This document shows positions 1 to 14,502 of a stretch of 64,000 nt of DNA, one piece after another (the first letter of the stretch is position 1; each line of letters begins with the position of its first letter). Both the position numbers and the translations under genes were made by a program. A model generated the notes under the pieces. The model ran no database searches, was not told where the DNA came from, and saw only the letters and a program-made list of their open reading frames with translations. Origin of the DNA: Bacteroidales bacterium (GTDB taxonomy: Bacteria; Bacteroidota; Bacteroidia; Bacteroidales; WCHB1-69); contig JAKSMC010000008.1 in NCBI GenBank assembly GCA_024400835.1, positions 5,082-69,081 of the forward strand, read 5' to 3'.

Positions 1-811
1 TGGCCAGCTGCTGTTCCTCCTCAATGCGCTGCTGTTCGAGGTCGAAGACGCTCTGCTCGGATTGCAGGATGCTCATCTGCTGGTTGTCAACGCTCATCCG
101 CGATGATTCAAATGAGGACTGCTGCTGCAAGTAGCTGTTCTTGGAAGACTGGTACTCTGACAGTGAAAGCATTCCTTTGGCATACAGTGACGAGTCCATG
201 GAAAAGAGACTGTGTGCCGAAGCGAGCTGTTTTCTGCTGATCTGCAACTGGTTGACGGTCTTTTGCAGCAGACTCCTTTGCGATGAAATTTGTTTGCGGA
301 TGACCTTTATTTTGCGGTTGTGGTAGTCGGTTTCGATGAAATGCCGGTAATCCGTCAGGGCCTTGTCGAATGCGGTGTAGGCGGATTGGATGTCGCCCAA
401 TTGCAGGGACGAAAAATTTGTGGATTGGATGTCGCCCGTTTGTATGGACGAAAAATTTTTCGTCCGTACAATGTCGCGCAGCATCGTTTTCACCAGCATT
501 ACGTCCTCCAGACGGGCGGTATTGTGGATGACGGCCAGCAGGTCGCCCTCGCGCACCAGCTGTTTCTCGGCCACGGCGAGGGTGTCTATTTTGCCGGTGG
601 TCATCGCCATCACGCCGGCGGGCAGGTTCTCGGTGGTCACGGTGATGGTGGCGGGCAGGATGTCCGGGTACTTGAGGAAGTAGCTGCCCACGAATAGGCC
701 GGCCACCACGATGAAGATGACGCTGATGCCCGCACGCACTATCCAGCGCGGCGGCCTGCCGAGGATCTCTTGTACTTCCTCGCTGCGGAGATTTATGTTG
801 TCGGTTGGCAT
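1..811 (-). CDS. HlyD-family secretion adaptor (membrane-fusion) protein, N-terminal part; the gene runs off the window start
   Basis: It is absent from the ORF track because it leaves the window. The minus-strand ATG at 811..809 gives MPTDNINLRSEEVQEILGRPPRWIVRAGISVIFIVVAGLFVGSYFLKYPDILPATITVTTENLPAGVMAMTTGKIDTLAVAEKQLVREGDLLAVIHN..., followed by Q/S-rich coiled-coil. This is a TM anchor plus lipoyl-like hairpin, typical of bacteriocin-exporter HlyD partners. It lies downstream of the C39-ABC gene on the same strand. Confidence 0.8.
   Translation of the reverse strand, partial: MPTDNINLRSEEVQEILGRPPRWIVRAGISVIFIVVAGLFVGSYFLKYPDILPATITVTTENLPAGVMAMTTGKIDTLAVAEKQLVREGDLLAVIHNTARLEDVMLVKTMLRDIVRTKNFSSIQTGDIQSTNFSSLQLGDIQSAYTAFDKALTDYRHFIETDYHNRKIKVIRKQISSQRSLLQKTVNQLQISRKQLASAHSLFSMDSSLYAKGMLSLSEYQSSKNSYLQQQSSFESSRMSVDNQQMSILQSEQSVFDLEQQRIEEEQQLA
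383..460. repeat. In-frame 39-bp tandem duplication (2 units, 34/39 identical) inside hlyD, overlapping a perfect 20-nt palindrome at 446..465
   Basis: Unit 1 (383-421) is ggattggatgtcgcccaattgcagggacgaaaaatttgt. Unit 2 (422-460) is ggattggatgtcgcccgtttgtatggacgaaaaattttt. They encode NFSSLQLGDIQSA / NFSSIQTGDIQST. The palindrome is ggacgaaaaatttttcgtcc. Confidence 0.85.
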
Positions 812-818
812 TTTTTTA

Positions 819-881
819 GGGAATAGGTAATAGGGAATAGGGAATAGGGAATAGGTGATGGGGGTAGGGGTTAGGGATTGG
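819..881. repeat. Heptamer array A (GGGAATA/GGTAATA orientation on the + strand, degenerating to GGGGTAG/GGGTTAG)
   Basis: The sequence reads gggaata ggtaata gggaata gggaata gggaata ggtgatg ggggtag gggttag ggattgg. It fills the space between the hlyD start (811) and the four-helix-bundle gene and overlaps that gene's stop codon (871-873). Confidence 0.95.
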
Positions 882-1227
882 ATTTGGCGGTTTTTATGCG
901 TGAGGTGAGTAATTTTATCAGTTCGGAGCAGTCGTTGCTGATGCTTTCGAAGGCGATGTTGTCAATGTATTCTGATTCGTGTAGTAGTTCTAACCAATAT
1001 TCCGTTTCTGCAGCTTCCTTGAGCGCAATGGAAGATTTTGAAACGAAGTCCGCCTTAGATTGTGCGTAGGTGCTCTCAGTCAAATTGGCCCCGATGCTTG
1101 TTCCGCACCGCAGCACTTGCTTGGACATCACAAACTCCTTCCTCTCCTCAATCAGAAACTTATACAATCGTATAACCCTCAATGCAAAAGCCTTCGCTTT
1201 TTTCATAATAATTCCTTTATTTTCCAT
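871..1227 (-). CDS. Four-helix-bundle protein (23S rRNA intervening-sequence protein / S23-like family)
   Basis: The 118-aa ORF contains ...AFALRVIRLYKFL...VLRCGTSIGANLTESTYAQSKADFVSKSSIALKEAAETEYWLELL.... The GxSIGANxxE and EtxYWLxL motifs are characteristic of this family. An alternative start is M8 at 1206. Confidence 0.8.
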   Translation of the reverse strand: MENKGIIMKKAKAFALRVIRLYKFLIEERKEFVMSKQVLRCGTSIGANLTESTYAQSKADFVSKSSIALKEAAETEYWLELLHESEYIDNIAFESISNDCSELIKLLTSRIKTAKSNP

Positions 1228-1289
1228 GTTTTTTTCACAATAACGTGAAATAAAAGTTAATATTGTATTAAAAAATATTTTTTTAAAAA

Positions 1290-1353
1290 CTATTACCTAC
1301 CACTTATTACCTATTACTTATTACTTATTACCTATTCCCTATTACCTATTCCC
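1290..1353. repeat. Heptamer array B (CTATTAC/CTATTCC orientation), inverted relative to array A
   Basis: Nine heptamers read ctattac ctaccac ttattac ctattac ttattac ttattac ctattcc ctattac ctattcc. Positions 1331-1353 (cctattccctattacctattccc) are the exact reverse complement of 819-841. The last codons and stop of the ABC gene (LGNR*) are encoded by the array. Confidence 0.95.
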
Positions 1354-3675
1354 TAACTCCAGCTGGTTCCTCACCAACTCGAAGTACTCGCCTCGCAGGG
1401 CGGTGAGTTCCTCGTGTGTGCCCGTCTCCGTGATGCGGCCGTGGTTGATGACCACGATTTGGTCGGCGTTCTTCACCGTGCTCAGGCGGTGCGCCACCAC
1501 GACAACCGTCCTTCCCTTGAAGAACTGCTGGAGGTTCTCCATAATCACCTTCTCGTTGTTGGCATCCAAGGCGTTGGTTGCCTCATCGAAGAAGAGGTAG
1601 TCGGGATTCTTATAGACGGCGCGGGCGATGAGTATGCGCTGGCGCTGGCCCTGACTGATGCCTTTGCCCTCCTGTCCTATCTTGGTGTTGAAGCCTAACG
1701 GCAGCCCGTCTATCATCTCCTGGATGTTGGCCACGCGCACGGCGTTGAGCAGGCGCTGGGTGTCGATGTGCTCGTCACCCACGGCGATGTTGCGGGCGAT
1801 GGTGTCCGAGAAGATGAATCCGTCCTGCATCACCGCGCCGCAGCGGTCACGCCAGAAGCGGTGACTGATGTTCTGCAGCCCCGTCTCGCCCACGCGGATC
1901 TCACCCTTGTTGGGCGGGTAGAAGCCGAGCAGCAGTTTCACCAAAGTGGTCTTGCCGCTGCCGCTCATCCCCACAATGGCCGTCACCTTGCCCTCCGGAA
2001 TGTGCAGCGACAAATCGTGCAGCACATCCTCCCCCAACTCATCATACCGAAATGTTATATTATTGATGTCGAGAGACGCGGCACGCCACGTCCCCACAAA
2101 ATCCCTATTCCCTATTACCTGTTCCTTATTCCCTATTACCTGTTCCCTATTACCTATTACCTGTTCCCTATTACCTATTACCTGTTCCCTATTACCTATT
2201 ACCTGTTCCCTATTACCTATTCCCTCTTCCCTCTCCTCGTCCTCGCGATTATGAATCTCCCCCAGCCGTTCCAGACTGATTTTGGCATCCTGCGCCGACT
2301 GGATGAAGCCTATCATCTGGTTGATGGGGGCGTTGAGCTGGCCGATGATGTACTGAACGGCGGTCATCATACCCAGGGTCATGTCGCCCTTGATGACGGC
2401 GGCGGCGGAGACGAAGGAGATGAGGATGTTCTTGGTCTCGTTGATGAAGAACGCGCCCGACTGCTGGTACTGGCTGAGCGCCAGGCCCTTGATGCTTACG
2501 CGGAAGAGCTTGGCCTGTATGTTCTCCCATTCCCAGCGTTTCTGCTTCTCGCAGTTGTTGAGCTTGATTTCCTGCATTCCCGTGATGAGCTGGTAGAGGT
2601 TGCTCTGCTCGGCGGAGGCCTGCGCGAAACGCTTGTAGTCCAACTCTTTTCGTTTTTTCAGGAATATGGTAATCCACAGCACGTAGAGGATGGAGGCCAC
2701 TAAAAAGACGAGGAACAGCTTGAGGCTGTAAAGCGCCAGCACGATGCTGAACACGATGAGGTTGACGAACGAGAACAGCGTGTTGAGCGTGGTGGAGGTG
2801 AGGAAGGCCTCGATGCGGCTGTGGTCGCCGATGCGCTGCATAATGTCGCCGATCATCTTGGTGTCGAAGAAGCCGATGGGCAGCTTCATCAGCTTGATGA
2901 GGAAGTCGGAGATGATGGAGATGTTGATGCGGGTGCTGATGTGCAGCAAGATCCACGAGCGGATGAACTCAACGGCGGTCTGCGCTAAGTAGAGGGTGAG
3001 CTGGGCGATGAGGATGACGATGACGAAGCTGAGATTGTTGTTGCCGATACCGTAATCCACGATGCTCTGCGTGAGGAATGGGAAGAAGAGCTGCAGCAGC
3101 GTGCCGAGCAGCATTCCGAGGAAGAGCTGCACGATGAGTTTCTTGTAGGGTTTGAGGTATTGGAGTACGAAGCGCAGTTTGGTCTTGTCCTGTTTTTCGT
3201 CTTCCTGTTTGTAGAAATCCGGGGTGGGTTCCAACAGCAGGGCGATGCCCTCGTCTTGGCCGTCCGTTTTGGTGCTGAGCCATCCTGACAGGAATTCCTG
3301 CACAGTGAATTTGATGAGACCCTGTGCGGGGTCAGCCACATAGACCAGTGAACTGTGATCAGTGAGCTGTGAACTGTCTTTGGGAGGTTTGATGTCGTAA
3401 ACGACCACGAAGTGGTTCTGTTTCCAGTGTACGATGCAGGGTAGGGGTGCCTCGCAGAGCTGTTGGAACGAGATGTGCACACCGACGGTGCGGAAGCCGA
3501 TGCCCTCGGCGGCGGTGCTGATGCCGAGCATACTCACCCCCTCGCGCCCGATGAAGCACTTCTGCCGGAGCGTCTCCAACGAATAGTGCTTGCCGTAGTG
3601 CTTGGCAATCATCCGCAGGCACGTCGGCCCGCAGTCCATCGCATCGAGCTGCTGATAAAACGGAAACTTACCCAT
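1342..3675 (-). CDS. Peptidase-C39-domain bacteriocin/RiPP ABC exporter (peptide cleavage/export permease-ATPase)
   Basis: The 777-aa product has an N-terminal C39 domain (QLDAMDCGPTCLRMIAKHYG...HWKQNHFVVVY...VADPA). It then has a six-TM ABC membrane domain and an NBD with Walker A GMSGSGKTT, signature ISQGQRQR, Walker B LFFDEATNALD and H-loop VVVAHRLST. Confidence 0.95.
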   Translation of the reverse strand: MGKFPFYQQLDAMDCGPTCLRMIAKHYGKHYSLETLRQKCFIGREGVSMLGISTAAEGIGFRTVGVHISFQQLCEAPLPCIVHWKQNHFVVVYDIKPPKDSSQLTDHSSLVYVADPAQGLIKFTVQEFLSGWLSTKTDGQDEGIALLLEPTPDFYKQEDEKQDKTKLRFVLQYLKPYKKLIVQLFLGMLLGTLLQLFFPFLTQSIVDYGIGNNNLSFVIVILIAQLTLYLAQTAVEFIRSWILLHISTRINISIISDFLIKLMKLPIGFFDTKMIGDIMQRIGDHSRIEAFLTSTTLNTLFSFVNLIVFSIVLALYSLKLFLVFLVASILYVLWITIFLKKRKELDYKRFAQASAEQSNLYQLITGMQEIKLNNCEKQKRWEWENIQAKLFRVSIKGLALSQYQQSGAFFINETKNILISFVSAAAVIKGDMTLGMMTAVQYIIGQLNAPINQMIGFIQSAQDAKISLERLGEIHNREDEEREEGIGNREQVIGNREQVIGNREQVIGNREQVIGNKEQVIGNRDFVGTWRAASLDINNITFRYDELGEDVLHDLSLHIPEGKVTAIVGMSGSGKTTLVKLLLGFYPPNKGEIRVGETGLQNISHRFWRDRCGAVMQDGFIFSDTIARNIAVGDEHIDTQRLLNAVRVANIQEMIDGLPLGFNTKIGQEGKGISQGQRQRILIARAVYKNPDYLFFDEATNALDANNEKVIMENLQQFFKGRTVVVVAHRLSTVKNADQIVVINHGRITETGTHEELTALRGEYFELVRNQLELGNR
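2104..2229. repeat. Heptamer array C inside the ABC exporter ORF: six 21-nt units of three heptamers each
   Basis: The unit cctatta cctatta cctgttc occurs as three perfect copies (2146-2208) flanked by three variant units. It is translated on the minus strand as GIGNREQV IGNREQV IGNREQV IGNREQV IGNKEQV IGNRDFV, in the linker between the TM domain and the NBD. Confidence 0.95.
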
Positions 3676-3680
3676 ATCAC

Positions 3681-3785
3681 CTATTCCCTATTACTTATTC
3701 CCTATTACTTATTCCCTATTACTTATTACTTATTACCTATTACTTATTACCTATTACCTATTACCTATTACCTATTACCTGTTCC
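3681..3785. repeat. Heptamer array D: 15 tandem heptamers forming essentially the whole intergenic spacer
   Basis: The array reads ctattcc ctattac ttattcc ctattac ttattcc ctattac ttattac ttattac ctattac ttattac ctattac x4 ctgttcc. It is bounded by the ABC start codon (3675) and the SPASM-gene stop (3786). Confidence 0.95.
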
Positions 3786-4898
3786 CTAATCTTCCCCCAA
3801 AATCTCCTTATTCAGTTTGTCAATCCGTTCCTTGTCCGGCACAAATCCCGTTTCGCGGGAATACGTGCCGCACTCCTCTACAGGCACGTAGCCTTCCTGG
3901 CCTTCCCAGAGGCAGATGTAGGGGTTGTAGGTACACTTGGCGGGTTGGGAGTAGATGTTTTCGGGATCTTTGATGAAGGCGCGGCAGTCGGTACACATAT
4001 AGCGGAACTCGCAATCCTTGCAAACGTCAATCTTGTCCTTATTGATGAACCAGAGATCCTTGAATCCCGGCTTGTTGATAGCCTCCTCCAAAGTGGTATC
4101 CCTGATGTTGCCGTAGCTTTTGGCCATAGCCGGACAGTTCTTGATGTTGCCCTCGGCATCAATGCACACCTTGCGGTTGAGGCAGGTGTTGTGGCACTGG
4201 GCTTCGGTGAAACATTCAATTGTTCTACAAAAATAATAAGGATGAATATTGCCGCAACTTATTGAGTTATCTATTTTCTCTTTAGTAATAATTATAGTAT
4301 TTTCTCCTTCTTGAATTATTTTATTGTAGTCAGAATTTGTAACAACAATTTTGCTAATAGAGGAGTTGTTTCTCCTCCAAGTTAAAAGTTCAGCTTCAGA
4401 TGCTATATTTGAAGCATTTATGACATACTCGAAATATTTCATACCTACATTACTGGCATAGTGTTGAATTTCAGAGATTTTTTCCGATTCAAAACGGCTA
4501 AAAATCAAAAATTGTATATTAACACAATTCAAACGGAGAAGTTCACTAAGTATGTTTTTATAAAATTTATAATTGAAATTGTTTAATACCAATATTGCAT
4601 TGGTGACATGTGCTGGATACGCCCAGGTCAGATCCATTTTGGGGAAATTTTGCAACTCATTGTCTTCTATCTCAAATAGATACTCTTCTTTAATAAGGCT
4701 ATTAATAAAAGAAGAAATGTTTTTTTGAGAGAACTTATCATATAGACCTATTGTTAGGGAATCAATCACATTATTATCATTGAATAAGCCAGTAATACCA
4801 TTTGGTATAAATATATGTTTGTCTCGCTGTAGATCGTATATACAACTTCTTCCATAACCTACCACAAGTCTACAGCATTCGAATAATCTATACTTCAT
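3786..4898 (-). CDS. SPASM-domain peptide maturase of the 'grasp-with-spasm' type (no canonical radical-SAM CX3CX2C motif visible)
   Basis: The 370-aa product starts MKYRLFECCRLVVGYGRSCIYDLQRD.... Its C-terminal Cys-rich SPASM-like region is CHNTCLNRKVCIDAEGNIKNC...CKDCEFRYMCTDC...C. The N-terminal half has no CxxxCxxC. The gene is adjacent to an ATP-grasp gene. Its 3' ~430 nt are GC-rich and its 5' ~680 nt are AT-rich. Confidence 0.8.
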   Translation of the reverse strand: MKYRLFECCRLVVGYGRSCIYDLQRDKHIFIPNGITGLFNDNNVIDSLTIGLYDKFSQKNISSFINSLIKEEYLFEIEDNELQNFPKMDLTWAYPAHVTNAILVLNNFNYKFYKNILSELLRLNCVNIQFLIFSRFESEKISEIQHYASNVGMKYFEYVINASNIASEAELLTWRRNNSSISKIVVTNSDYNKIIQEGENTIIITKEKIDNSISCGNIHPYYFCRTIECFTEAQCHNTCLNRKVCIDAEGNIKNCPAMAKSYGNIRDTTLEEAINKPGFKDLWFINKDKIDVCKDCEFRYMCTDCRAFIKDPENIYSQPAKCTYNPYICLWEGQEGYVPVEECGTYSRETGFVPDKERIDKLNKEILGED

Positions 4899-5091
4899 AA
4901 TTAGACAGATTAAAATTTAGAATTTTTGAAATGGTTTTATAAAAAGTAAACACCTTTTCCACTTCATTTGAATATTGTTTGATTTGTTCTTCGTTTGAAC
5001 TAGTGCTTTGGTCGATTTCCCAAAAATGTGCTATTACAGGATAGCGTTCGGGATTGTCCATTATTTCTTTCGTTAAGGGGGTTTCTTTCAT
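4888..5091 (-). CDS. Small acidic hypothetical protein (67 aa), translationally coupled between the ATP-grasp and SPASM genes
   Basis: Its start shares an ATGA overlap with the ATP-grasp stop (5088-5091), and it overlaps the SPASM gene start by 11 nt. No recognisable motif and no GG leader are present. Confidence 0.5.
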   Translation of the reverse strand: MKETPLTKEIMDNPERYPVIAHFWEIDQSTSSNEEQIKQYSNEVEKVFTFYKTISKILNFNLSNYEV

Positions 5092-6047: not shown

Positions 6048-6048
6048 A

Positions 6049-7200: not shown

Positions 7201-7220
7201 AAACTTTGATTTTAATTTGT

Positions 7221-7260
7221 CAAGTGAGAAATTGACCAGAAACGGTCAGTTTCCCACTTG
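7221..7260 (-). terminator. Stem-loop immediately downstream of precursor gene 1 (attenuator or stabiliser; no U-tract)
   Basis: The sequence caagtgagaaattgacc-agaaac-ggtcagtttcccacttg forms a ~17-bp interrupted stem. It sits between the precursor stop (7278) and the next start (7200). Confidence 0.45.
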
Positions 7261-7277
7261 ATTTAAATTTTCATAAT

Positions 7278-7511
7278 CTACTTTTTATCTTCGGGGCATG
7301 GGATAGTGTAAGTATCGGATAGAACTTGTCCAAAACCACTTAGAGAATCATCGTAAATGTCACATTCGGTTGATATTATATTACCATTTTGATCTTTGTT
7401 ATATATTGTCGTTTTTCTTTTCGACCCACCTCTGATTTTCAAAGGAGAATCAATTGATTGAGATTTATAGTCTTCTAATTTTTTATTGTTGATTGTTTGT
7501 ATTTTTTTCAT
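7278..7511 (-). CDS. RiPP precursor peptide 1 (double-glycine leader; candidate graspetide/SPASM substrate)
   Basis: The sequence is MKKIQTINNKKLEDYKSQSIDSPLKIRGG | SKRKTTIYNKDQNGNIISTECDIYDDSLSGFGQVLSDTYTIPCPEDKK. The 29-aa Lys-rich leader ends in GG, which fits a C39 cleavage site. The 48-aa core is rich in Ser/Thr (10), Asp/Glu (8) and Lys (5), with 2 Cys. The start is taken at MKK (7511); the ORF track starts 2 codons earlier. Confidence 0.7.
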   Translation of the reverse strand: MKKIQTINNKKLEDYKSQSIDSPLKIRGGSKRKTTIYNKDQNGNIISTECDIYDDSLSGFGQVLSDTYTIPCPEDKK

Positions 7512-7517
7512 AACCAA

Positions 7518-7740
7518 ATAGTTTAAATGGTAAAACTCCTCTTTCCCGCGGGTGTGTCGGCACTTTGCGCGGCACTTTCGGGTATGTCATCACAACGGGA
7601 AAAATGGTATCTTTGCCGCCTGATTTGCAGTGCCATCGCGTTACAAACATCACGATATATGCGACCTCGGTGCTTTTGAGCAGGGTACATCGTACTAAGA
7701 ATGCGACTTCCTTGGCGATGTCCCTGCGGGGGCACCTGTT
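7518..7740 (-). other. GC-rich non-ORF segment upstream of precursor 1, paralogous to 11899..12120 upstream of precursor 2
   Basis: Collinear similarity blocks have matching spacing and matching distance (about 71-75 nt) to each precursor ATG: 7586-7634 vs 11969-12016, 7678-7691 vs 12055-12068, and 7717-7733 vs 12097-12113. The segment also contains the direct repeat cggcacttt N3 cggcacttt at 7557-7580. Confidence 0.6.
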
Positions 7741-7743
7741 TTA

Positions 7744-7778
7744 GGGAATAAGTAATAGGTTATAGGTAGTATGTGATG
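7744..7778. repeat. Heptamer array E (GGGAATA orientation, degenerate, 5 units)
   Basis: The array reads gggaata agtaata ggttata ggtagta tgtgatg. Positions 7744-7759 are the exact reverse complement of cctattacttattccc, which is present twice in array D (3687-3702 and 3701-3716). Confidence 0.8.
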
Positions 7779-8088
7779 AGTTTACTTATTCACCTGTTTA
7801 CGTCCTGCCAACGGTCTTTACGCACCACGATGGCAGGACTTCAATCAAGGAAGTGATTCTTCCCCAACCAATAGAGGTCGGGCAGCAAATAAGGATTCAG
7901 GTTGTCATCTTTCATTCATTCGTCATTTTTAGTTAGCGGTTGTCTTATTCAGTGTGTTAACCTTTTACGGTCCTCTTCATCGGCCGCGCCCAGCCCGTAA
8001 AAAGCGAGTGCAATAATATTAAAAACTTTTGTATATAGGTCGTTTTTCTGTTTTTTACTTTAATGATTATCAAATAGTTAGCGATTGC

Positions 8089-8535
8089 TTAAGTAATAAA
8101 ACAGCCTATCGAGAAGCGGAATTTTCGGAGAAAATCCGATGGGGGATGGTGGGGATTTCGGAGAAATTTGATGAGGCCCTGCGCGGGGTCCGCCACATAG
8201 ACCAGTGAACTGTGATCAGTGAGCTGTGAACTGTCTTTGGGGCGTTTGATATCGTAAACGACCACGAAGTGGTTCTGTTTCCAATGCACGATGCAGGGCA
8301 ATGGTGCCTCGCAGAGCTGTTGGAACGAGATGTGCACGCCGATAGTGCGGAAGCCGATGCCCTCGGCGGCGGTGCTGATGCCGAGCAGGCTCACGCCCTC
8401 GCGGCCGATGAAGCACTTCTGCCGGAGCGTCTCCAACGAATAGTGCTTGCCGTAGTGCTTGGCAATCATCCGCAGGCAAGTGGGGCCGCAATCCATGGCA
8501 TCGAGTTGCTTGTAAAACGGGAATTTTTTACTCAT
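8089..8535 (-). CDS. Stand-alone peptidase C39 domain: a truncated paralog of the 5' end of the ABC exporter gene (functional status unknown)
   Basis: The 148-aa ORF has its first ~123 aa nearly identical to the exporter N-terminus (MSKKFPFYKQLDAMDCGPTCLRMIAKHYG...HWKQNHFVVVY...VADPAQGLIKF). The nucleotide homology 8166-8535 vs ~3318-3675 is roughly 90% by eye. It then diverges into an unrelated 24-aa tail. The catalytic Cys, His and Asp positions are retained. Confidence 0.55.
   Translation of the reverse strand: MSKKFPFYKQLDAMDCGPTCLRMIAKHYGKHYSLETLRQKCFIGREGVSLLGISTAAEGIGFRTIGVHISFQQLCEAPLPCIVHWKQNHFVVVYDIKRPKDSSQLTDHSSLVYVADPAQGLIKFLRNPHHPPSDFLRKFRFSIGCFIT
8138..8157. repeat. G-rich heptamer-like patch at the C39-paralog breakpoint, flanked by a 10-bp direct repeat
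   Basis: The patch gatgggg gatggtg gggatt resembles the degenerate end of array A. It is flanked by ttcggagaaa at 8124-8133 and 8157-8166. Homology to the full-length exporter gene ends here. Confidence 0.6.
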
Positions 8536-8577
8536 TGATAGTTACTCATTACTAAATCCTAATTGTTAATCCTCTCC
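8536..8577. repeat. Heptamer array F (degenerate, TATTACC orientation) directly upstream of the C39 paralog
   Basis: The sequence reads ..tagttac tcattac taaatcc taattgt taatcct... It occupies the same position relative to the C39 start codon as array D does for the full gene. Confidence 0.55.
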
Positions 8578-8583
8578 CCAAAT

Positions 8584-8660
8584 CTATTTGTTCAACTCAG
8601 CAATCCTCTTCTTGTCGGGCATTCCCTCAAGCCTGTCCGAGAACTCCAAATCATGTATTT
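8584..8660 (-). pseudogene. Remnant of the 3' end of a SPASM maturase gene (last ~20 codons plus stop)
   Basis: The minus-strand translation ...LEFSDRLEGMPDKKRIAELNK* aligns with the C-terminus of the 3786..4898 product (...TYSRETGFVPDKERIDKLNKEILGED*). It has the same order (SPASM end, heptamer spacer, C39 start) as 3786-3675. Confidence 0.5.
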
Positions 8661-8850
8661 TTATTCACAAGTTACATGTGAAAAAAAAACTCTTTTTTTC
8701 AATTTTGCGGAGAAGGGGATAAATGAGTTCTCGGACGAACTTATCTTTTCGTGGTAAGCTGCTTCGAACACCTCTACGGGTATCTATCCTATCAAGAGCT
8801 ACCTGTCTGTACAAAAAGAGTGAGCATGATTCGTTTTATTTTTTTTAAAT

Positions 8851-10275
8851 CTATTTCTTGTCATTCATCACCATTTTCACAATCTCTTCGACATCACTAT
8901 TCTCGAAATCCCTTTCCACATCAGGGGCAATCCCGTTCGAGCAGTCGCGGTTGCGGGTGTCAAAACTTCTGAACGAGTTGATCATGCAGATGATGCCTGA
9001 GGGGAGCGGTACCACAAGCGGCTGACCTGTAGCACCCGCAGTGGTTTTTCCCACCACACACACATTCGGACTTTGCACGAGCTGCATCACGAAACCCTCT
9101 GCGGCGGAGGCTGTGCGCGGACCGACCAAGACGTAAACTTTCCCATGATACCGTTGCGAGTTCGGATTCCCGTTCGCCACCGTAGTTGCTTGGATGGTAT
9201 CGAACGCATTATTGAATAAATGCGGACAATAGACCCGTTTGGTGTATTCATCCATGGATTCAGGATCTCCATACAGCATTCTCACAGCCGCCCAAGCCCG
9301 GTAGGCCGAATTGTTGACCCGCGACAACAGCACTCCCGACAACATAATCGAATCTTTATCAACAAGATAAGGCGTTATAGGAGAATAGGCTCTGCCGTCG
9401 CCCCCCAAATTGTTGCGCAAATCCAGAACGAAATGCATATTTTGGTTGATTGTGGGTAAATATTTCATGAAAGTGTCCACCGTGGCCGCATTGCAATCGT
9501 CGATACGCAGATATGCAGCATCTTGTGCCGGAAAAACCACAAACAGATTATTATTTCCAGCCAAGTTTTCACTTTCTATCGCCATCCAATGGTATTTCAA
9601 CTGTTCCTCTTCCTGTTCTTTTGATGGAGAAAAATGCCAGTCGTAACCTATTGACAGCTTCTTGAGCCCATTTCCCGATTTCACCTCCATTTCCAGCTTT
9701 GTGTTATAGCTTTTCGGTTGGAAAATCATGGGATGCAAGGCATTCGGCGTGAACATCGCGGCTTCAAGCAAGGTCTCTTGATTGGTGCAAGAAATCAGTG
9801 GCGCTACATTTTGCGTAAACCATTCCACTGCAGGAATCCCATCTATACGGACAATTTCATCCCCAACTGAAACCTTGTCGGCGTATTGAGAGCTGATATT
9901 GCGGATATAAATCCTGCCGTCTCTGTACTCCGTCTGCAGTCGAATCATCGCCAACGAAGGCATTAGCTGTTGCGGCATCATGCAGTAGGTGTGGCTGTTA
10001 TGAAAATGCGCCAAGAACTCCTGCATCGTCAGGTAGTGCTCGAAATCGTCCTTTGTCCGCTGAATCTTGGGGATATAGGCGGCATAGAGACTGTCCACGT
10101 TCAGTCCCTGACAATTATCCATATTGGCGAAGTTGTAGGACAACTCTTTCCAAACCACAGCGAGTTCGTATATTTTTTGAGATGATGTGAGCTGTTCTTT
10201 ACCGCCAACTTGTGCGATAAGGGTTGGCGTAATCAAGATTGTCACAAAAGCTAAAATAAAAGGAATTTTTTTCAT
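8851..10275 (-). CDS. Peptidase S41 family (tail-specific/C-terminal processing protease-like), with signal peptide
   Basis: The 474-aa product starts MKKIPFILAFVTILITPTLIAQ. It contains FVLDLRNNLGGDG and VYVLVGPRTASAAEGF, which match S41 DLRxNxGG and S-A-x-E type motifs. Its start lies 12 nt downstream of the rSAM gene. Confidence 0.8.
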   Translation of the reverse strand: MKKIPFILAFVTILITPTLIAQVGGKEQLTSSQKIYELAVVWKELSYNFANMDNCQGLNVDSLYAAYIPKIQRTKDDFEHYLTMQEFLAHFHNSHTYCMMPQQLMPSLAMIRLQTEYRDGRIYIRNISSQYADKVSVGDEIVRIDGIPAVEWFTQNVAPLISCTNQETLLEAAMFTPNALHPMIFQPKSYNTKLEMEVKSGNGLKKLSIGYDWHFSPSKEQEEEQLKYHWMAIESENLAGNNNLFVVFPAQDAAYLRIDDCNAATVDTFMKYLPTINQNMHFVLDLRNNLGGDGRAYSPITPYLVDKDSIMLSGVLLSRVNNSAYRAWAAVRMLYGDPESMDEYTKRVYCPHLFNNAFDTIQATTVANGNPNSQRYHGKVYVLVGPRTASAAEGFVMQLVQSPNVCVVGKTTAGATGQPLVVPLPSGIICMINSFRSFDTRNRDCSNGIAPDVERDFENSDVEEIVKMVMNDKK

Positions 10276-10287
10276 TTCAAATGTCTA

Positions 10288-11589
10288 TTACTTTTTTGCA
10301 ACTTTGCTTCTAATATATCTTTGGAATGATATTTCTGAATAATCATTGCGACATACAAAATCATGCTTACCTTTTTGTATTTCATAATGGTGTTGCACAC
10401 AGGGACCATAACACAATGGTAATATTTTACAATTCAAACATTTTTCATTGTCAAAAGTGGTTTTGCCAAAATAGGTGCTCATAACATTGTCATCGAGTAT
10501 CAAATCTCCATCAGAGCATAATCTTCCAATTACTAAACTGTCATCATAGTCCCGTGCTGCACATTTGTAGATTTTACCATCATAATTTATCACTCTGTGG
10601 TAATAGTTGTCTGAATAACACGCTGAAAAGCCACGATGCCTATACGCAAAATACTCTACTTGAAATCCAGCCTCCTCAAAATCACGTTTCCTTTGTAATA
10701 GAGTTTCGTTTTCACCAGAAATGGGATCTTTAGACAATCCAACCTGCCATATTCTTTGAAAATCAACAAAAATACTTTTTCTGTTCTTAACGGGGAAAAA
10801 GTCTATTATTTCTGAAATATCCGACAACGTGTCAGTGTCATAATTGATTCTCAGAACCACCATTGAGTTTTCAATACTTTCGCAGATATAATTTACATTA
10901 TCTATTATTTTTTTAAAATGCCCTTCCCCCTTGATATTTTTCACCATATTATGCCTTGTTTCGTTCCCGTCAATCGGAATTTGAAATTTATTCAAATTGA
11001 TGGTATTACAGGCTTTTATTATTTCCTCATTGAAATAATAACCATTGGTGGTGATTTGGTTAATAAACGGCAATCTGTGGCGTTTGCATAATTCAATAGC
11101 ATGTGTCGAAATCGGAAGTATTACTTCGTTAAAATACATTAATGGTTCTCCTCCAAACCAATCAATATGTAAAGAATTAACGCCGTTCTTCACTATCTTG
11201 AGTATGTGATTCTTTATTTTCTGAATGGTTGAGTTGTCCATTCGTCTCTTTTCATATTTAGTGTTCATTTCTTCTACACAACAATACCAACACCTATAAT
11301 TACATTGTAACGTTGGATTTATCGTTAAGTGGTAATTCCTTTCCGACAGGATTGTCTCTTTGTTTTTGAACAATAAATAATTTATTTCGTCGAATTTTTC
11401 GTCTACAATGAAATGACATTGAATAAAATACTGAAAGATATCCGGATAGTGTTCTTCAAATTCATTCAAGTTGGTTAAATAGTACTTGATGTCATTGGTT
11501 TCTTTAGAATCAAATTCGATTGCTATATCTGAAAAAGAGTTATAAAGAATGTTCTCTTGCCAAATATTAAATACGCTGTTTTTTTTCAT
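10288..11589 (-). CDS. Radical SAM/SPASM peptide maturase
   Basis: LTINPTLQCNYRCWYCCV provides the CX3CX2C motif. The C-terminal SPASM motif is CLNCKILPLCYGPC (CX2CX5CX3C) plus auxiliary Cys residues. The start is chosen at MKKNSVF (11589); the longest ORF starts at 11619 but would run through the hairpin/U-tract. Confidence 0.88.
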   Translation of the reverse strand: MKKNSVFNIWQENILYNSFSDIAIEFDSKETNDIKYYLTNLNEFEEHYPDIFQYFIQCHFIVDEKFDEINYLLFKNKETILSERNYHLTINPTLQCNYRCWYCCVEEMNTKYEKRRMDNSTIQKIKNHILKIVKNGVNSLHIDWFGGEPLMYFNEVILPISTHAIELCKRHRLPFINQITTNGYYFNEEIIKACNTINLNKFQIPIDGNETRHNMVKNIKGEGHFKKIIDNVNYICESIENSMVVLRINYDTDTLSDISEIIDFFPVKNRKSIFVDFQRIWQVGLSKDPISGENETLLQRKRDFEEAGFQVEYFAYRHRGFSACYSDNYYHRVINYDGKIYKCAARDYDDSLVIGRLCSDGDLILDDNVMSTYFGKTTFDNEKCLNCKILPLCYGPCVQHHYEIQKGKHDFVCRNDYSEISFQRYIRSKVAKK

Positions 11590-11606
11590 ATCAATTATTT
11601 TTACTG

Positions 11607-11671
11607 AAAAAATGCCCAAAAGGATCTTATCAAAACCTTATGCTCTTATTGTTTTAATGCCCTTTTGGGCA
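11607..11671 (-). terminator. Intrinsic-terminator-like attenuator between precursor 2 and its rSAM maturase
   Basis: An 11-bp perfect stem pairs 11661-11671 with 11613-11623 (gcccaaaagg/ccttttgggc core) around a 37-nt loop. It is followed on the minus strand by UUUUUU (11612-11607), 18 nt before the maturase ATG. Confidence 0.55.
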
Positions 11672-11694
11672 AGCTTGTTATGTTAGTTCATTCA

Positions 11695-11898
11695 TTAAGA
11701 TTTAGGGAGACAAGCAGGAATGCACAAAGAGAATGGCTTAATGCGACATGGATTGTCCAAAGGGAGACAATAAGGGTTTTGGATTGGGGGAAGCGGTGGA
11801 ATATCCCCTTCGCCTCCGATTATTTTTTGTGCATTTTTAAGTTGTCTAAGAGACTCTTTACAAAGAGACAACGATGGTTTGTTTTTTTTAACTTTCAT
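11695..11898 (-). CDS. RiPP precursor peptide 2 (double-glycine leader; Pro/Cys-rich core)
   Basis: The sequence is MKVKKNKPSLSLCKESLRQLKNAQKIIGG | EGDIPPLPPIQNPYCLPLDNPCRIKPFSLCIPACLPKS. The 29-aa leader ends in GG. The 38-aa core has 10 Pro and 4 Cys. It lies immediately upstream of the rSAM/SPASM gene. Confidence 0.7.
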   Translation of the reverse strand: MKVKKNKPSLSLCKESLRQLKNAQKIIGGEGDIPPLPPIQNPYCLPLDNPCRIKPFSLCIPACLPKS

Positions 11899-12304
11899 AT
11901 CATGTAATTTATTTGTTCAACTTTCCCCTTCTGCTTTTGCCGGCAGGAAAGAATCTCCGGTTGCTCCACACTCACAACAGAAAAAATGTTACTTTTGCCA
12001 TCGAATTTGGGTGCCAAGCAGTAGAGCCATACCCGACCGTTTTCGGATGCCGATAGCACAGGGACATCATCATATATCCGTTATAACATCAAGGGTGATG
12101 TTCCCTGTGGGGCATCCTTTTCTTCCGTGCCGTCCCGGTAATCGCAGAACAGGATTTCCTGCCTTACGACTGCGCCCCTCAGACGGCACGCGAGTCAGCC
12201 AAGTTATTTTTGCCCAACCATTGCAGATCAGGGGCATCGGTTTTTATGTGAATTGCTTTTTTCATGTTTCTCCTTTTCGTTCAGCCGCAAGGAAGCGGTA
12301 GCTC

Positions 12305-12805
12305 CTAATTGTTACTGTATGCAGCTGATTCGCTGAAGAACAGTCCCGTAAAGGTAAACTGCTGCGTGGTGCGGTTTCTGTACACCATCTGCTCCGGAAT
12401 GTTTAGAAAGATGTCGTTCCCCTTCTCGTCCTTGTAGCTCAACGAACGGTCTGGCATCAGAAAGAAGTCCTCCGAAGTCAAGTCAAACGTGTCAGTCGTA
12501 GTAGCAATTACGTCAGTTCCTATTTGCTGAAGTTGGACGGCAGCCATCTTCTGACAAAGATTTCCCTCCCCCACACAGTTCACGTGAACATACATGCCAT
12601 CCTCCCACACGCATCCTTTGCAAGTCTTGCCATCATGGCCAACACATAGGGCCAGTATCACCTCCGAGTTTCCGGTCTTACCTTCTTCGGGCAGTACTAT
12701 CACTCTGTTAAACCTGTGTTTCTGATCCGTAGCCTGGGTTCCATCCTTCTCACATGCGATGAGCACCATAGCAGTAAGCAGTACCATTGTCAATATTTTT
12801 TTCAT
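12305..12805 (-). CDS. Small Cys-containing lipoprotein (166 aa), function unknown
   Basis: MKKILTMVLLTAMVLIAC has a lipobox-like signal (LIAC). The mature part contains CVGHDGKTCKGCVWEDGMYVHVNCVGEGNLC. The start is chosen at M62 of the track ORF (12805). Confidence 0.65.
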   Translation of the reverse strand: MKKILTMVLLTAMVLIACEKDGTQATDQKHRFNRVIVLPEEGKTGNSEVILALCVGHDGKTCKGCVWEDGMYVHVNCVGEGNLCQKMAAVQLQQIGTDVIATTTDTFDLTSEDFFLMPDRSLSYKDEKGNDIFLNIPEQMVYRNRTTQQFTFTGLFFSESAAYSNN

Positions 12806-14272: not shown

Positions 14273-14339
14273 GGTTTGTACCCCCGCACATCTACTGCTT
14301 ACTGCGCAATAAAAAAGCCCCGAGAATTCGGAGCTTTGG

Positions 14340-14423: not shown

Positions 14424-14502
14424 GTTTTTTTGGAGGGCGCAAAAATACACTTTTTTCTGAATCATTCGGGTTGTGACAATCACGAGTTCAAGTTTATTCT
14501 CT

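What the first reader, a model, noticed from the sequence alone, without database searches (positions are those of the whole stretch)
1..12805. Composite RiPP locus: two unrelated GG-leader precursor/maturase sets apparently served by one C39-ABC/HlyD exporter
All genes from 12.8 kb down to position 1 are on the minus strand.

Set 1 (3786-7511) contains precursor 1 and an exported 383-aa protein. It also contains an ATP-grasp ligase, a coupled 67-aa ORF and a SPASM-domain protein that visibly lacks the CX3CX2C radical-SAM motif.

Set 2 (8851-11898) contains precursor 2, a canonical rSAM/SPASM enzyme (CNYRCWYC; CLNCKILPLCYGPC) and a signal-peptide S41 protease.

Both precursors have 29-aa Lys-rich leaders ending in GG. 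GG is the cleavage signature for C39 peptidase-exporters. Only one complete exporter (1342-3675) plus a HlyD gene (1-811) is present.

The ATP-grasp + SPASM pairing is catalogued in NCBIfam/TIGRFAMs as the 'grasp-with-spasm' system. As far as I know, no product has been chemically characterised. Its physical fusion with a second Cys/Pro-core pathway and a shared exporter is not something I know to be described.
Basis: partly seen in the sequence, partly recalled or inferred. Interest (0 to 1): 0.78.

Follow-up and report, generated by a model that had tools for sequence, protein, structure and literature searches.

The report
Stacked peptide-antibiotic cassettes sharing one exporter
Two unrelated modified-peptide gene sets sit in front of one complete export pump in a Bacteroidales metagenome genome because recombination stacked one set behind the other and cut off the first set's own pump gene; similar stacks recur in related bacteria, so this is a modular variant of known systems, not a new kind.

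Summary

The locus is a recombination mosaic, not a designed fusion. Between the sets lies a 123-codon stump of a second C39-ABC gene (8165-8535).
- Related assemblies (L125, L130) carry the same set 2 (99-100% nt) directly followed by an intact exporter.
- The stump is chimeric. Its first ~21 codons match that set-2 allele; codons ~22-123 match the exporter allele downstream of set 1.
- The same stump|spacer junction occurs in five other assemblies.

Best explanation: homologous recombination in the conserved exporter 5' end stacked [stump-spacer-set 1-exporter] behind set 2. Both GG-leader precursors must now use the one remaining exporter. That step is inferred, not shown.

Stacked arrays with exporter stumps recur: gws then rSAM in L022, rSAM then lanthipeptide in L006-L009, and three linkers in L027. 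The pairing is therefore not unique.

Both precursors are preceded by a conserved structured ~230-nt element that has no Rfam match.

Set 1 matches the published "branch 5" graspetide cluster. I found no report of a characterised product. Verdict: new variant of a known kind, moderate interest.

The parts
1..811 (-). HlyD/AprE-type membrane-fusion gene of the exporter module (N-terminal 270 aa; runs off the window)
   Evidence: Only weak Pfam HlyD_3 and Biotin_lipoyl_2 hits. However, it is 85% aa identical to the gene after the ABC in L002, 75% in L012, and 54% to the L011 gene that carries PF26002 Beta-barrel_AprE.
871..1227 (-). 23S_rRNA_IVP-family four-helix-bundle gene, flanked by inverted heptamer arrays (817-866 and 1290-1356)
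   Evidence: PF05635 96.7 bits. Inverted repeats I1 and I2. A gene of the same family sits between ABC and HlyD in L011.
1342..3675 (-). Intact C39-peptidase ABC exporter (PCAT), allele 'ABC_A', 777 aa. It has an in-frame 21-nt x6 heptamer-derived insert (2102-2232, GNREQVI x6) in the TMD-NBD linker.
   Evidence: PF03412, PF00664 and PF00005. Below the NCBIfam equivalog cut-offs. Tandem repeat found. TMD is 94-97% aa identical in L012-L014, where the maturases are only 46-50% identical.
3675..3788 (.). Heptamer minisatellite (TAGGTAA / TAAGTAA / TAGGGAA on the minus strand) between the SPASM gene and the exporter
   Evidence: It is an expansion of a short seed that is present in the same intergenic region of L002, L012 and L125.
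3786..4898 (-). Grasp-with-spasm SPASM-domain maturase without a radical-SAM cluster motif
   Evidence: TIGR04193 268.4 bits against a cut-off of 175. No CX3CX2C. The family alignment has invariant Cys only in the C-terminal half.
4888..5091 (-). 67-aa accessory protein in the 'LPL-family' position (overlaps the grasp stop and the SPASM start)
   Evidence: No HMM hit. It shares a C-terminal FYKxISK(I/L) motif with the small ORFs directly upstream of the SPASM gene in about 40 loci. Its position matches the description in PMC8939145.
5088..6047 (-). Grasp-with-spasm ATP-grasp peptide ligase (319 aa)
   Evidence: TIGR04192 247.3 bits against a cut-off of 230. Called as 319 aa in the independent contigs L135 and L136.
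6049..7200 (-). 383-aa protein with a signal-like N-terminus, all-alpha, function unknown. It is a conserved accessory of grasp-with-spasm loci, probably the 'cluster 23'-type protein of Makarova et al.
   Evidence: No Pfam or NCBIfam hit. 504 representative clusters at E<=1e-3. Homologues lie next to grasp genes in L002, L042, L046, L054, L063 and L082. AF2 model pLDDT 65.5, all helical. No PDB fold match.
7278..7511 (-). Precursor 1: 29-aa leader ending KIRGG, and a 48-aa Ser/Thr/Asp/Glu-rich core with 2 Cys
   Evidence: Sequence. 59% identical homologue in the same position in L002 and L003. The exact protein occurs in 4 other contigs.
7512..7741 (-). Conserved structured leader element, copy 1, immediately upstream of precursor 1
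   Evidence: CM R1 scores 167.6 bits at 7585-7741. Alignments A2 and A4. Covariation. No Rfam match.
7742..8164 (-). Inter-cassette spacer. It holds a heptamer array (7739-7783, flanked by a duplicated AAACAGGTG) and about 380 nt of non-coding sequence whose left end abuts the exporter stump.
   Evidence: Window 8167->7538 is 89.7% identical to L001 2319-2963, and 88% to L137, where it links other cassettes.
8165..8535 (-). Exporter stump: codons 1-123 of a C39-ABC gene, chimeric (codons 1-~21 set-2-locus allele, ~22-123 ABC_A-like). The ORF reads on into the spacer to 8089.
   Evidence: 92.3% identity to 3308-3669. Pfam C39 model positions 2-111 of 133 only. Site-by-site mosaic. Identity profile. 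Same junction in P0252, P0255, P0256, P0258 and P0259.
8536..8650 (-). Relic of the 3' end of a grasp-with-spasm SPASM gene (...PDKKRIAELNK*) plus the SPASM-ABC intergenic region
   Evidence: 79% identical to the SPASM-ABC junction of L002 and L003. Repeat family D4. The same S41-SPASM tail-stump order occurs in L027.
8851..10275 (-). S41-family peptidase with a signal-like N-terminus, part of set 2
   Evidence: PF03572 69.8 bits. It follows the rSAM gene in L006-L011, L094-L097 and L118.
10288..11589 (-). Radical SAM/SPASM peptide maturase of set 2 (433 aa)
   Evidence: CNYRCWYC at residue 96. PF04055 and TIGR04085. Best equivalog is TIGR04463 at 145.7 bits against a cut-off of 525, so it is not a member. 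587 relatives, mostly Bacteroidales.
11695..11898 (-). Precursor 2: 29-aa leader ending KIIGG, and a 38-aa Cys/Pro-rich core with 5 Cys
   Evidence: Sequence. The leader motif K-L-x-L-x-E-x-L-x-Q-L...GG and Cys-rich cores are shared by the small ORFs upstream of homologous rSAM genes in L007, L010, L011 and L022.
11899..12121 (-). Conserved structured leader element, copy 2, upstream of precursor 2
   Evidence: CM R1 scores 99.1 bits at 11967-12121. Compensatory changes relative to copy 1 in the long hairpin.
12305..12805 (-). 166-aa lipoprotein-like gene on the conserved left flank of the locus
   Evidence: 52% identical in L005 and 41% in L013, in the same position next to a LytTR gene. The left edge of the 99-100% identical set-2 block lies at about 12299, just after this gene's stop codon.
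13106..14272 (+). Divergent membrane-anchored LytTR + winged-helix regulator, a candidate locus regulator
   Evidence: PF04397 33.9 bits and PF12802. The same gene sits on the left flank in L005, L013 and L126-L132.

Best explanation
The region is an array of two self-contained RiPP cassettes parked upstream of one conserved export platform (PCAT, an IVP-family gene, HlyD).

Cassette 2 (leader element, precursor 2, rSAM/SPASM, S41) originally sat directly in front of its own PCAT. A donor segment with the structure [PCAT stump codons 1-123 | spacer | leader element | precursor 1, 383-aa protein, ATP-grasp, 67-aa protein, SPASM | PCAT ABC_A, IVP, HlyD] then recombined into it. The left crossover fell at about codon 21 of the resident PCAT gene. 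This stacked cassette 1 behind cassette 2 and left a chimeric stump. These points are shown by sequence comparison.

The following function is inferred.
- Precursor 1 is cross-linked by the ATP-grasp ligase (side-chain esters or amides). It is further processed by the cluster-binding SPASM protein, with the 67-aa protein as a helper.
- Precursor 2 receives Cys-derived cross-links from the rSAM/SPASM enzyme.
- Both are exported by the single remaining PCAT, whose C39 domain removes the leaders after GG. HlyD and an outer-membrane factor outside the window would complete the export route.
- The periplasmic S41 peptidase probably trims or activates product 2.

Each cassette has its own copy of a conserved structured ~230-nt upstream element. 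The two cassettes are therefore probably regulated in parallel.
For: Family assignments.

Pre-insertion allele:
- L125 and L130 carry pre2, rSAM and S41 at 99-100% nt identity, followed directly by an intact 758-aa PCAT.
- The identical block runs from window ~12299 to ~8470 and ends inside the PCAT 5' end.
- Diagnostic sites switch from L125-like to ABC_A-like at about codon 21.

The junction is real:
- The same stump|spacer junction ('GLIKF|L(R/L)N') occurs in five proteins from other assemblies, with two kinds of N-terminus.
- The spacer also links other cassettes in L001 and L137.

Canonical single-cassette operons exist for both sets:
- Set 1-PCAT-HlyD in L002, L003 and L012.
- Set 2-PCAT(-IVP)-HlyD(-OEP) in L011, L094, L095 and a JGI contig.

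The platform is conserved while the cargo varies. PCAT TMD is 94-97% aa identical where SPASM is 46-50%. PCAT is 84-87% identical in L002/L003 where the maturases are 53-64%. GC is 0.52-0.56 against 0.32-0.37.

Stacked arrays with stumps recur in L022, L027, L006-L009, L011 and L016.

Expression and integrity:
- No intrinsic-terminator-like site was found on the coding strand between set 2 and the exporter.
- All set-2 ORFs are intact.
- The same sample, SRR17543908, yields contigs 100.000% identical to window 14371-8449 and to 7612-3902.

GG leaders of very different sequence precede near-identical exporters in related loci.
Against: - No expression, product or cleavage data exist. Sharing of the exporter is inferred only.
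- No independent contig spans set 2, the stump, the spacer and set 1 in one piece. Independent assemblies break inside the stump and inside the leader repeat.
- The right-hand crossover lies outside the window.
- Related assemblies show set 2 decaying: an rSAM cut to 317 aa in L131 and L132, and a 163-aa rSAM remnant in L089. Set 2 may therefore be dispensable.
- How the first stump|spacer junction arose is unexplained. A short palindrome at the left end of the linker in three different linkers hints at something other than plain homologous recombination.
- The stump retains Cys16, a His and an Asp, so residual peptidase activity cannot be excluded.
Confidence: 0.62

Rival explanations
1. Set 2 is an orphaned cassette on its way to loss. 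When its exporter was truncated it lost its export route, the downstream PCAT does not serve it, and only set 1 is productive.
For: - Set 2's own PCAT is reduced to a stump lacking the last ~22 positions of the C39 model and all of the TMD and NBD.
- Related assemblies carry degraded versions: a deletion of window 12831-11305 in L131 and L132, and an rSAM 3' remnant in L089. Truncated 146-163-aa rSAM members are seen on more contigs than the 433-aa form.
Against: - Precursor 2, rSAM and S41 are full length. They differ by only 0-6 codons per gene from the copies in L125 and L130, which have an intact exporter.
- The GG leader is of the ordinary kind.
- Stacked arrays ending in a single intact PCAT recur in several lineages. 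This is hard to explain if every upstream cassette were dead.
- The stacking event may be too recent for decay to be visible either way.
Confidence: 0.2
2. The adjacency of the two sets is an assembly chimera. The metagenome assembler joined two strains or loci inside the shared PCAT 5' sequence, so no real genome carries set 2, the stump and set 1 contiguously.
For: - The source is a MAG contig.
- The switch of allele type at codon ~21 lies in a stretch identical among alleles.
- Independent Logan contigs all end inside the stump or the leader.
- No other contig with the exact 148-aa stump protein was found.
Against: - L131 carries set 2 joined to the ABC_A-like part of the stump about 95 nt beyond the switch point, in an independent assembly.
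- The stump|spacer junction itself is not inside any repeat, and it is seen in five other assemblies.
- One sample yields both halves at 100.000% identity.
- Analogous stacks occur on long contigs of other genomes: L006-L009 on 60-118-kb contigs, and L022 on an 85.7-kb contig.
Confidence: 0.08
3. The stack was made by a non-autonomous mobile unit with a defined left end (the palindrome ATTTC-TCC-GAAAT). This unit inserts into the 5' part of PCAT genes. Homologous recombination was not the cause.
For: Three different exporter-side breakpoints (codon ~6 in L001 and L137, 23 in L027, 123 in the window) are all joined to a linker that starts with the same 11-13-nt palindromic motif. This holds even though the L027 linker is otherwise unrelated.
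Against: - No transposase or integrase lies in or next to the cassettes in the window.
- There is no target-site duplication and no second end.
- The chimeric stump with a clean allele switch is what a homologous crossover gives.
- The L001 junction can be derived from the 123-codon stump by an internal deletion.
- The motif also occurs by chance elsewhere.
Confidence: 0.12
4. The locus is a true hybrid pathway. Both maturase sets act on the same peptide or peptides, for example with the cluster-only SPASM protein of set 1 working with the rSAM enzyme of set 2.
For: - Pseudo-rSAM/SPASM proteins are proposed to partner rSAM enzymes in other Bacteroidales clusters (PMC10352776).
- The two sets lie on the same strand with no terminator predicted between them.
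Against: - Each set occurs alone with its own precursor and exporter in other genomes: L002, L003 and L012 for set 1, and L125, L130 and L011 for set 2.
- The two cores have different compositions.
- The adjacency is explained by a recent recombination event.
Confidence: 0.04

Closest known systems
Grasp-with-spasm system (NCBIfam TIGR04192/TIGR04193). It corresponds to the 'branch 5' Bacteroidetes graspetide clusters of Makarova et al. 2022 (PMC8939145) and the gwsG/gwsS loci on Porphyromonas gingivalis ICEs (bioRxiv 10.64898/2026.08.04.741601).
   Same: Set 1 has every listed component in the published order. These are a GG-leader precursor, a secreted accessory protein, the ATP-grasp, a small protein directly upstream of the SPASM gene, and a SPASM protein, followed by C39-ABC and HlyD.
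   Different: - Here it is stacked behind an unrelated rSAM/S41 cassette and separated from it by an exporter stump.
- The precursor matches none of the curated NCBIfam or Pfam models in these libraries.
- No ICE genes were noticed in the window, and the surrounding genes include an RNA polymerase beta-subunit gene.
rSAM/SPASM Cys-rich-peptide maturase systems (ranthipeptide/sactipeptide-type; NCBIfam TIGR04463, Clo7bot TIGR04334, CefB NF038107)
   Same: Set 2 has a GG-leader Cys-rich precursor. Its enzyme has the CX3CX2C motif and a SPASM domain, and aligns over nearly its full length to these models.
   Different: - Scores are far below every equivalog cut-off (best 145.7 against 525).
- The enzyme is consistently paired with a periplasmic S41 peptidase and a PCAT in Bacteroidales.
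- The chemistry is untested.
Hybrid or multi-enzyme RiPP regions reported in Bacteroidales (rSAM + LanC 'areas of interest', PMC10352776)
   Same: More than one class-defining maturase lies in one neighbourhood, together with PCAT export and GG leaders.
   Different: That survey does not contain the term 'grasp', and I found no mention in it of exporter stumps, linkers or a shared upstream element. In the window the two sets are separable cassettes, not one hybrid pathway.
One PCAT serving many or foreign double-glycine peptides. Examples are the prochlorosin and NHLP/Nif11 systems with LahT-type exporters, and pneumococcal ComAB exporting Blp peptides when blpA is disrupted (recalled from my own knowledge, not checked here).
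   Same: A single C39-ABC processes several GG-leader substrates. A disrupted paralogous exporter gene is tolerated because another PCAT can substitute.
   Different: In the window the substrates come from two different maturation chemistries in one array. The disrupted exporter is a recombination scar that is copied along with the cassettes.
Variable cassette regions between conserved flanks that are exchanged by homologous recombination. Examples are the pneumococcal blp bacteriocin-immunity region and capsule loci (own knowledge).
   Same: Conserved flanks (the lipoprotein/LytTR side and the PCAT side) lie on either side of highly variable, low-GC cargo. A 99-100% identical cargo block sits in flanks that are only 75-84% identical.
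   Different: Cassettes are added in series as well as replaced. Each addition leaves an exporter stump. No integrase or attC-type machinery was found, so the locus is not an integron.

Membership tests
Grasp-with-spasm system (TIGR04192 + TIGR04193) | ATP-grasp ligase scoring above the TIGR04192 cut-off | tested here: met
   247.3 bits against 230 for window 5088-6101
Grasp-with-spasm system (TIGR04192 + TIGR04193) | SPASM-domain partner scoring above the TIGR04193 cut-off, encoded next to the ligase | tested here: met
   268.4 bits against 175. The genes are separated only by the overlapping 67-aa ORF.
Grasp-with-spasm system (TIGR04192 + TIGR04193) | SPASM partner lacks the radical-SAM CX3CX2C cluster motif | tested here: met
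   No C...C..C anywhere in the 370 aa. The invariant Cys of 26 family members all lie at or after residue 215.
Grasp-with-spasm system (TIGR04192 + TIGR04193) | Adjacent precursor peptide recognised by a curated precursor model (TIGR04139, TIGR04149 or PF14406) | tested here: not met
   No NCBIfam or Pfam hit for 7278-7517 at E<=0.01. By position, GG leader and a 59% identical homologue in L002 it is still the evident precursor.
Branch 5 graspetide cluster (Makarova et al. 2022) | Small 'LPL-family' protein always directly upstream of the SPASM gene | tested here: inconclusive
   Position met (4888-5091 overlaps the SPASM start). It shares a C-terminal FYKxISK motif with about 40 equivalents. 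The eponymous LPL motif is not evident (YPV instead).
Branch 5 graspetide cluster (Makarova et al. 2022) | Secreted 'cluster 23' accessory protein | tested here: inconclusive
   The 383-aa protein has a signal-like N-terminus, and homologues lie next to grasp genes in several loci. I had no cluster 23 sequence to compare with.
Graspetide (RiPP class) | Side-chain ester or amide macrocycles installed by the ATP-grasp enzyme | not testable with these tools
   Needs mass spectrometry or NMR of the product.
Peptidase-containing ABC transporter (PCAT) | N-terminal C39 domain with catalytic Cys and His, a six-helix TMD, and an NBD with Walker A/B and signature motifs | tested here: met
   PF03412 at residues 4-132, PF00664 at 185-450 and PF00005 at 552-701. 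DCGP, GMSGSGKTT, ISQGQRQR and LFFDEA are visible in the translation.
NHLP-type / bacteriocin ABC equivalogs (TIGR03796, TIGR01193) | Score above the curated cut-off | tested here: not met
   470.3 against 853.3, and 405.8 against 523.85
Radical SAM/SPASM RiPP maturase | CX3CX2C motif plus a C-terminal SPASM domain | tested here: met
   C96NYRCWYC. PF04055 61.6 bits. TIGR04085 38.0 bits against 27.
TIGR04463, Clo7bot, CefB and other named rSAM maturase equivalogs | Score above the curated cut-off | tested here: not met
   Best scores 145.7 against 525, 142.4 against 600, and 121.8 against 600
Peptidase S41 | S41 catalytic domain | tested here: met
   PF03572 69.8 bits against 24, at residues 253-454. 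The Prc/Ctp subfamily cut-offs are not reached.
Integron / site-specific cassette system | Integrase gene and attC-type sites bounding the cassettes | tested here: not met
   No recombinase among the ORFs of 1-14500. The junctions are exporter stumps, and the stump shows a homologous crossover signature.

The most novel reading that the evidence does not exclude
A clade of Bacteroidales known so far only from metagenome assemblies (including yak-rumen and horse-faeces MAGs) runs a recombination-driven, integron-like 'plug-in' system for secreted RiPPs.
- Unrelated maturase cassettes are stacked in series upstream of one highly conserved PCAT platform.
- Propagating exporter stumps plus linkers serve as portable homology arms.
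- Every cassette brings its own copy of a previously undescribed structured ~230-nt regulatory element (an RNA leader or a divergent small RNA). This element would place all cassettes under one control circuit, perhaps involving the flanking LytTR regulator.
Probability: 0.4. Interest if true: 0.65.

Novelty: new variant of a known kind. Interest (0 to 1): 0.45.

Why it matters
If the model holds, these bacteria diversify their secreted peptide arsenal by swapping and stacking low-GC maturase cassettes onto a fixed exporter. One PCAT would then accept products of quite different chemistries.

This would give a natural design rule for multi-product RiPP expression: GG leader, generic PCAT and a shared upstream control element. 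It would also give a ready list of paired cassettes to test.

The locus offers an intact example of the still uncharacterised grasp-with-spasm chemistry next to a second uncharacterised Cys-rich rSAM product. It also flags a candidate cis-regulatory element that has no Rfam match.

The grasp-with-spasm cluster itself is already catalogued, and multi-enzyme RiPP regions are already reported in Bacteroidales.

Tried and rejected
- Campbell-type integration of a circle carrying one exporter arm. Rejected: the intact exporter is a different allele (82-84% nt) from the one that follows set 2 in L125 and L130.
- 'The stump is simply the 5' end of set 2's own exporter.' Revised: only codons 1-~21 are of that allele, and the rest is ABC_A-like.
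- A single site-specific breakpoint in the C39 domain. Rejected: the stumps end at codons ~6, 23, 29, ~57-107, ~75-87 and 123 in different loci.
- The stump as a functional stand-alone leader peptidase. Considered unlikely: the last ~22 positions of the C39 model are missing, and stumps in other loci lack the His and Asp. Not excluded for this one.
- Plasmid origin: no megablast hit in PLSDB.
- Rfam: nothing in the locus at gathering scores, and nothing meaningful at E<=1 in 7200-12400.
- 383-aa protein: the AF2 model is only moderately confident (pLDDT 65.5), and Foldseek against the PDB gave no match with E<0.2.
- Exact-protein look-ups for the stump and for the long-start rSAM ORF gave no independent context.
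- The strand of the leader element could not be settled. G·U pairs in helices 3 and 4 favour the sense strand. A conserved TAnnTTTG box and a hairpin followed by a T-run favour an antisense ~125-nt RNA.
- Sigma-70-type promoter scan: not informative for Bacteroidota.

Full report
**1. Observation**

The window comes from a 94-kb contig of a Bacteroidales MAG (GCA_024500545.1). NCBI's own names for four of the genes are 'peptidase domain-containing ABC transporter', 'grasp-with-spasm system SPASM domain peptide maturase', 'cysteine peptidase family C39 domain-containing protein' and 'radical SAM protein'.

Every ORF from 12805 down to 1 is on the minus strand.

| Gene | Coordinates | Result |
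|---|---|---|
| ATP-grasp | 5088-6047 | TIGR04192 247.3 bits (cut-off 230) |
| SPASM protein | 3786-4898 | TIGR04193 268.4 bits (cut-off 175) |
| rSAM/SPASM | 10288-11589 | PF04055 and TIGR04085; no named equivalog reached (best TIGR04463, 145.7 against 525) |
| S41 peptidase | 8851-10275 | PF03572 69.8 bits |
| Exporter | 1342-3675 | C39 + ABC_membrane + ABC_tran |

- The SPASM protein has no CX3CX2C motif. The rSAM enzyme has C96NYRCWYC.
- Both precursors have 29-residue leaders ending in GG.

**2.

- Between the sets lies ORF 8089-8535. Its first 123 codons copy the exporter's C39 domain: 8165-8526 against 3308-3669, 334 of 362 nt identical, no gaps. The Pfam match covers C39 model positions 2-111 of 133.
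- Just upstream of it (about 8536-8650) is a relic of the 3' end of a grasp-with-spasm SPASM gene plus the SPASM-ABC intergenic region. It is 79% identical to that junction in L002.
- GC content is 0.52-0.56 in the exporter, 0.32-0.37 in set 1 and 0.33-0.36 in the rSAM gene.

**3. Each set exists alone elsewhere, with its own exporter**

Set 1:
- In L002, L003 and L012 the order is precursor, 383-aa homologue, grasp, small ORF, SPASM, PCAT, HlyD.
- This is the published 'branch 5' Bacteroidetes graspetide cluster. That cluster includes a small protein always encoded upstream of the SPASM gene and a secreted accessory protein (PMC8939145).
- It also matches the gwsG/gwsS loci on P. gingivalis ICEs.

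Set 2:
- In L011 the order is precursor, rSAM, S41, PCAT, IVP-family gene, HlyD.
- L094, L095 and a JGI contig carry rSAM, S41, PCAT and HlyD. The JGI contig also has an OEP gene.
- Small ORFs upstream of these rSAM genes share the leader motif K-L-x-L-x-E-x-L-x-Q-L...GG and have Cys-rich cores.

**4. The decisive comparison**

- L125 (GCA_020625415.1) and L130 carry the lipoprotein-like gene, precursor 2, rSAM and S41, followed directly by a PCAT gene. In L125 that gene is intact at 758 aa; the L130 contig ends 210 codons into it.
- Against the window these genes differ by 0-6 codons each.
- The 99-100% identical block runs from window ~12299, just after the lipoprotein gene's stop, to ~8470, about 21 codons into the PCAT gene. 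Identity then falls to 89%, 80% and 63%.
- A site-by-site alignment shows the stump switching from the L125 allele to an ABC_A-like allele at '...CTGCGGATG|ATT...'.
- The window's intact exporter is only 82-84% nt identical to L125's exporter.
- The stump and ABC_A differ at 22 synonymous and 5 non-synonymous codons. They therefore diverged as working genes before the truncation.
- The junction with the spacer ('GLIKF|L(R/L)N...') recurs in five proteins from other assemblies. Some have MSKK- and some have MGKF- N-termini.
- The spacer (8167->7538) is 88-90% identical to sequence that links other cassettes in L001 and L137.

Together these fit a double crossover between two loci:
- a resident locus of the form [set 2-PCAT];
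- a donor of the form [stump | spacer | leader element | set 1 | PCAT_A...].

The left exchange would lie inside the conserved PCAT 5' end.

**5. Generality**

I took 77 grasp-with-spasm loci from species-representative genomes.
- 44 show a PCAT within the flanks.
- At least 14 carry two or more maturase sets.
- At least six combine a gws set with a set-2-type rSAM and/or S41 gene (L014, L019, L022, L027, L040, L074).

Individual examples:
- L022 has the reverse order: gws, a 107-codon stump, rSAM, then an intact PCAT.
- L027 has three identical linkers with 23-codon stumps.
- The Candidatus Limimorpha loci L006-L009 have rSAM, S41 and a ~75-87-codon stump, then a class I lanthipeptide cassette, then another C39 copy with a similar tail that runs off the locus in most of them.

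The PCAT transmembrane domain is 94-97% identical in L012-L014, where the SPASM proteins are 46-50% identical. The general picture is a conserved export platform carrying exchangeable and stackable cargo. The particular pairing in the window is one instance of it.

**6. How it most likely works**

Shown:
- Two intact, self-contained cassettes.
- One intact PCAT with all catalytic and ATPase motifs.
- The same strand throughout.
- No terminator-like site on that strand between S41 and the exporter.

Inferred from family knowledge:
- The ATP-grasp forms side-chain ester or amide rings in the Ser/Thr/Asp/Glu-rich core of precursor 1.
- The cluster-only SPASM protein, with the 67-aa helper, adds or supports a further step.
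- The rSAM/SPASM enzyme makes Cys-derived cross-links in precursor 2.
- The C39 domain cuts both leaders after GG during export.
- HlyD and an outer-membrane factor beyond the window complete the channel.
- The S41 peptidase, which has a signal-like N-terminus, trims or activates product 2 outside the cytoplasm.

Promiscuity of the exporter is plausible. Closely related exporters sit behind precursors with quite different leaders...KIRGG...KIIGG...LVGG and ...VVGG.

**7. Caveats**

- No single independent contig spans both sets.
- Logan contigs from SRR17543908 are 100.000% identical to window 14371-8449 and to 7612-3902, but they break inside the stump and inside the leader repeat.
- L131 does carry set 2 joined to the ABC_A-like part of the stump beyond the switch point. 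I therefore rate an assembly chimera as unlikely (about 0.08), but it is not excluded.
- Related assemblies show set 2 decaying (L131, L132, L089). The cassette may be dispensable.

**8. Seen in passing: the upstream element**

- Both precursor genes are preceded by a conserved ~230-nt element (7512-7741 and 11899-12121).
- A covariance model built from seven copies finds it upstream of GG-leader precursors of different cassette types in L001, L002/L003, L005, L013, L027 and L057, plus a 5'-truncated copy at the start of L012. It finds the element nowhere else in the 64-kb window.
- 92.8% of cells are paired, against 44-52% in the slid controls. 22 of 37 pairs have changes on both sides (on a model-fitted alignment).
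- Rfam has no match.
- The strand is unresolved.

**9. Seen in passing: other features**

- Heptamer minisatellites mark most module borders. One lies in frame inside the exporter's linker.
- The left ends of different linkers share a short palindrome. This is unexplained.

**10. Verdict**

- Set 1 is a new member of a catalogued but chemically uncharacterised system.
- Set 2 belongs to a widespread family with no curated model.
- The stacked architecture, with exporter stumps and a shared upstream element, is a new variant of known RiPP/PCAT organisation.
- Interest is moderate (0.45).

Noticed in passing
window 7512-7741 and 11899-12121 (minus strand); also L001 2760-2916, L002 118-275, L005 1947-2102, L013 6371-6526, L027 7038-7198, L057 195-348: A conserved ~230-nt element sits directly upstream of GG-leader precursor genes of different cassette types. 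It has a long hairpin with compensatory changes and two further helices. It has no Rfam match. The opposite strand carries a conserved TAnnTTTG box and a hairpin followed by a T-run, so the transcribed strand is undecided.
   Followed up: yes
window 817-866, 1290-1356, 2102-2232, 3675-3788, 7739-7783: Arrays of 7-nt units (TAGGTAA / TAGGGAA / TAAGTAA and their complements) lie at most module borders. One is in frame inside the exporter gene and adds GNREQVI x6 between the TMD and NBD. The array at 7739-7783 is flanked by a duplicated AAACAGGTG. Array length differs between alleles (L002, L125).
   Followed up: partly
window 871-1227: A 23S_rRNA_IVP-family (four-helix-bundle) gene lies between the ABC and HlyD genes, bracketed by inverted heptamer arrays. 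A distant homologue occupies the same position in L011, but L012 has none there. It may be a small inserted element.
   Followed up: partly
window 8166 and 8133; L001 2319; L137 ~56; L027 3675, 6476, 10896: The sequence joined to truncated exporter genes begins with a short palindrome (ATTTC-TCC-GAAAT or TTTTC-TTCC-GAAA) in three otherwise different linkers. The exporter-side breakpoints are at codons ~6, 23 and 123.
   Followed up: partly
window 8536-8650 and 11906-11943: Relics of the 3' end of a grasp-with-spasm SPASM gene. One is clear and lies between S41 and the stump; the same order occurs in L027. The other is a weaker 38-nt match (71%) just upstream of precursor 2. Both suggest earlier rounds of cassette replacement.
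   Followed up: partly
window 12305-12805, 13106-14272, 14340-14423: The conserved left flank of the locus holds a lipoprotein-like gene, a divergent membrane-anchored LytTR + winged-helix regulator, and tRNA-Leu. The same lipoprotein/LytTR pair flanks RiPP cassettes in L005 and L013. It is a possible regulator of the array.
   Followed up: partly
L131/L132 (deletion of window 12831-11305); L089 (window 10714-8555 only, next to a GroEL-like chaperonin gene): Related assemblies carry degraded versions of set 2: an rSAM cut to 317 aa, or a 163-aa remnant fused behind a different C39 fragment. In the 90% identity cluster, truncated 146-163-aa rSAM products are seen on more contigs than the full 433-aa form.
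   Followed up: partly
L013 (JAGBPS010000026.1) 15399-17294: A second grasp/SPASM set is inserted between the ABC and HlyD genes of the exporter. Cassettes can therefore also lodge inside the export operon.
   Followed up: no
window 383-458: A 39-nt tandem duplication (1.9 copies, 89% identity) lies inside the HlyD coding region. Its length is a multiple of three.
   Followed up: no
window 37045-47571: A 3508-aa ORF on the minus strand. Its neighbours include a gene that NCBI names RNA polymerase beta subunit (27317-31117). Not examined.
   Followed up: no
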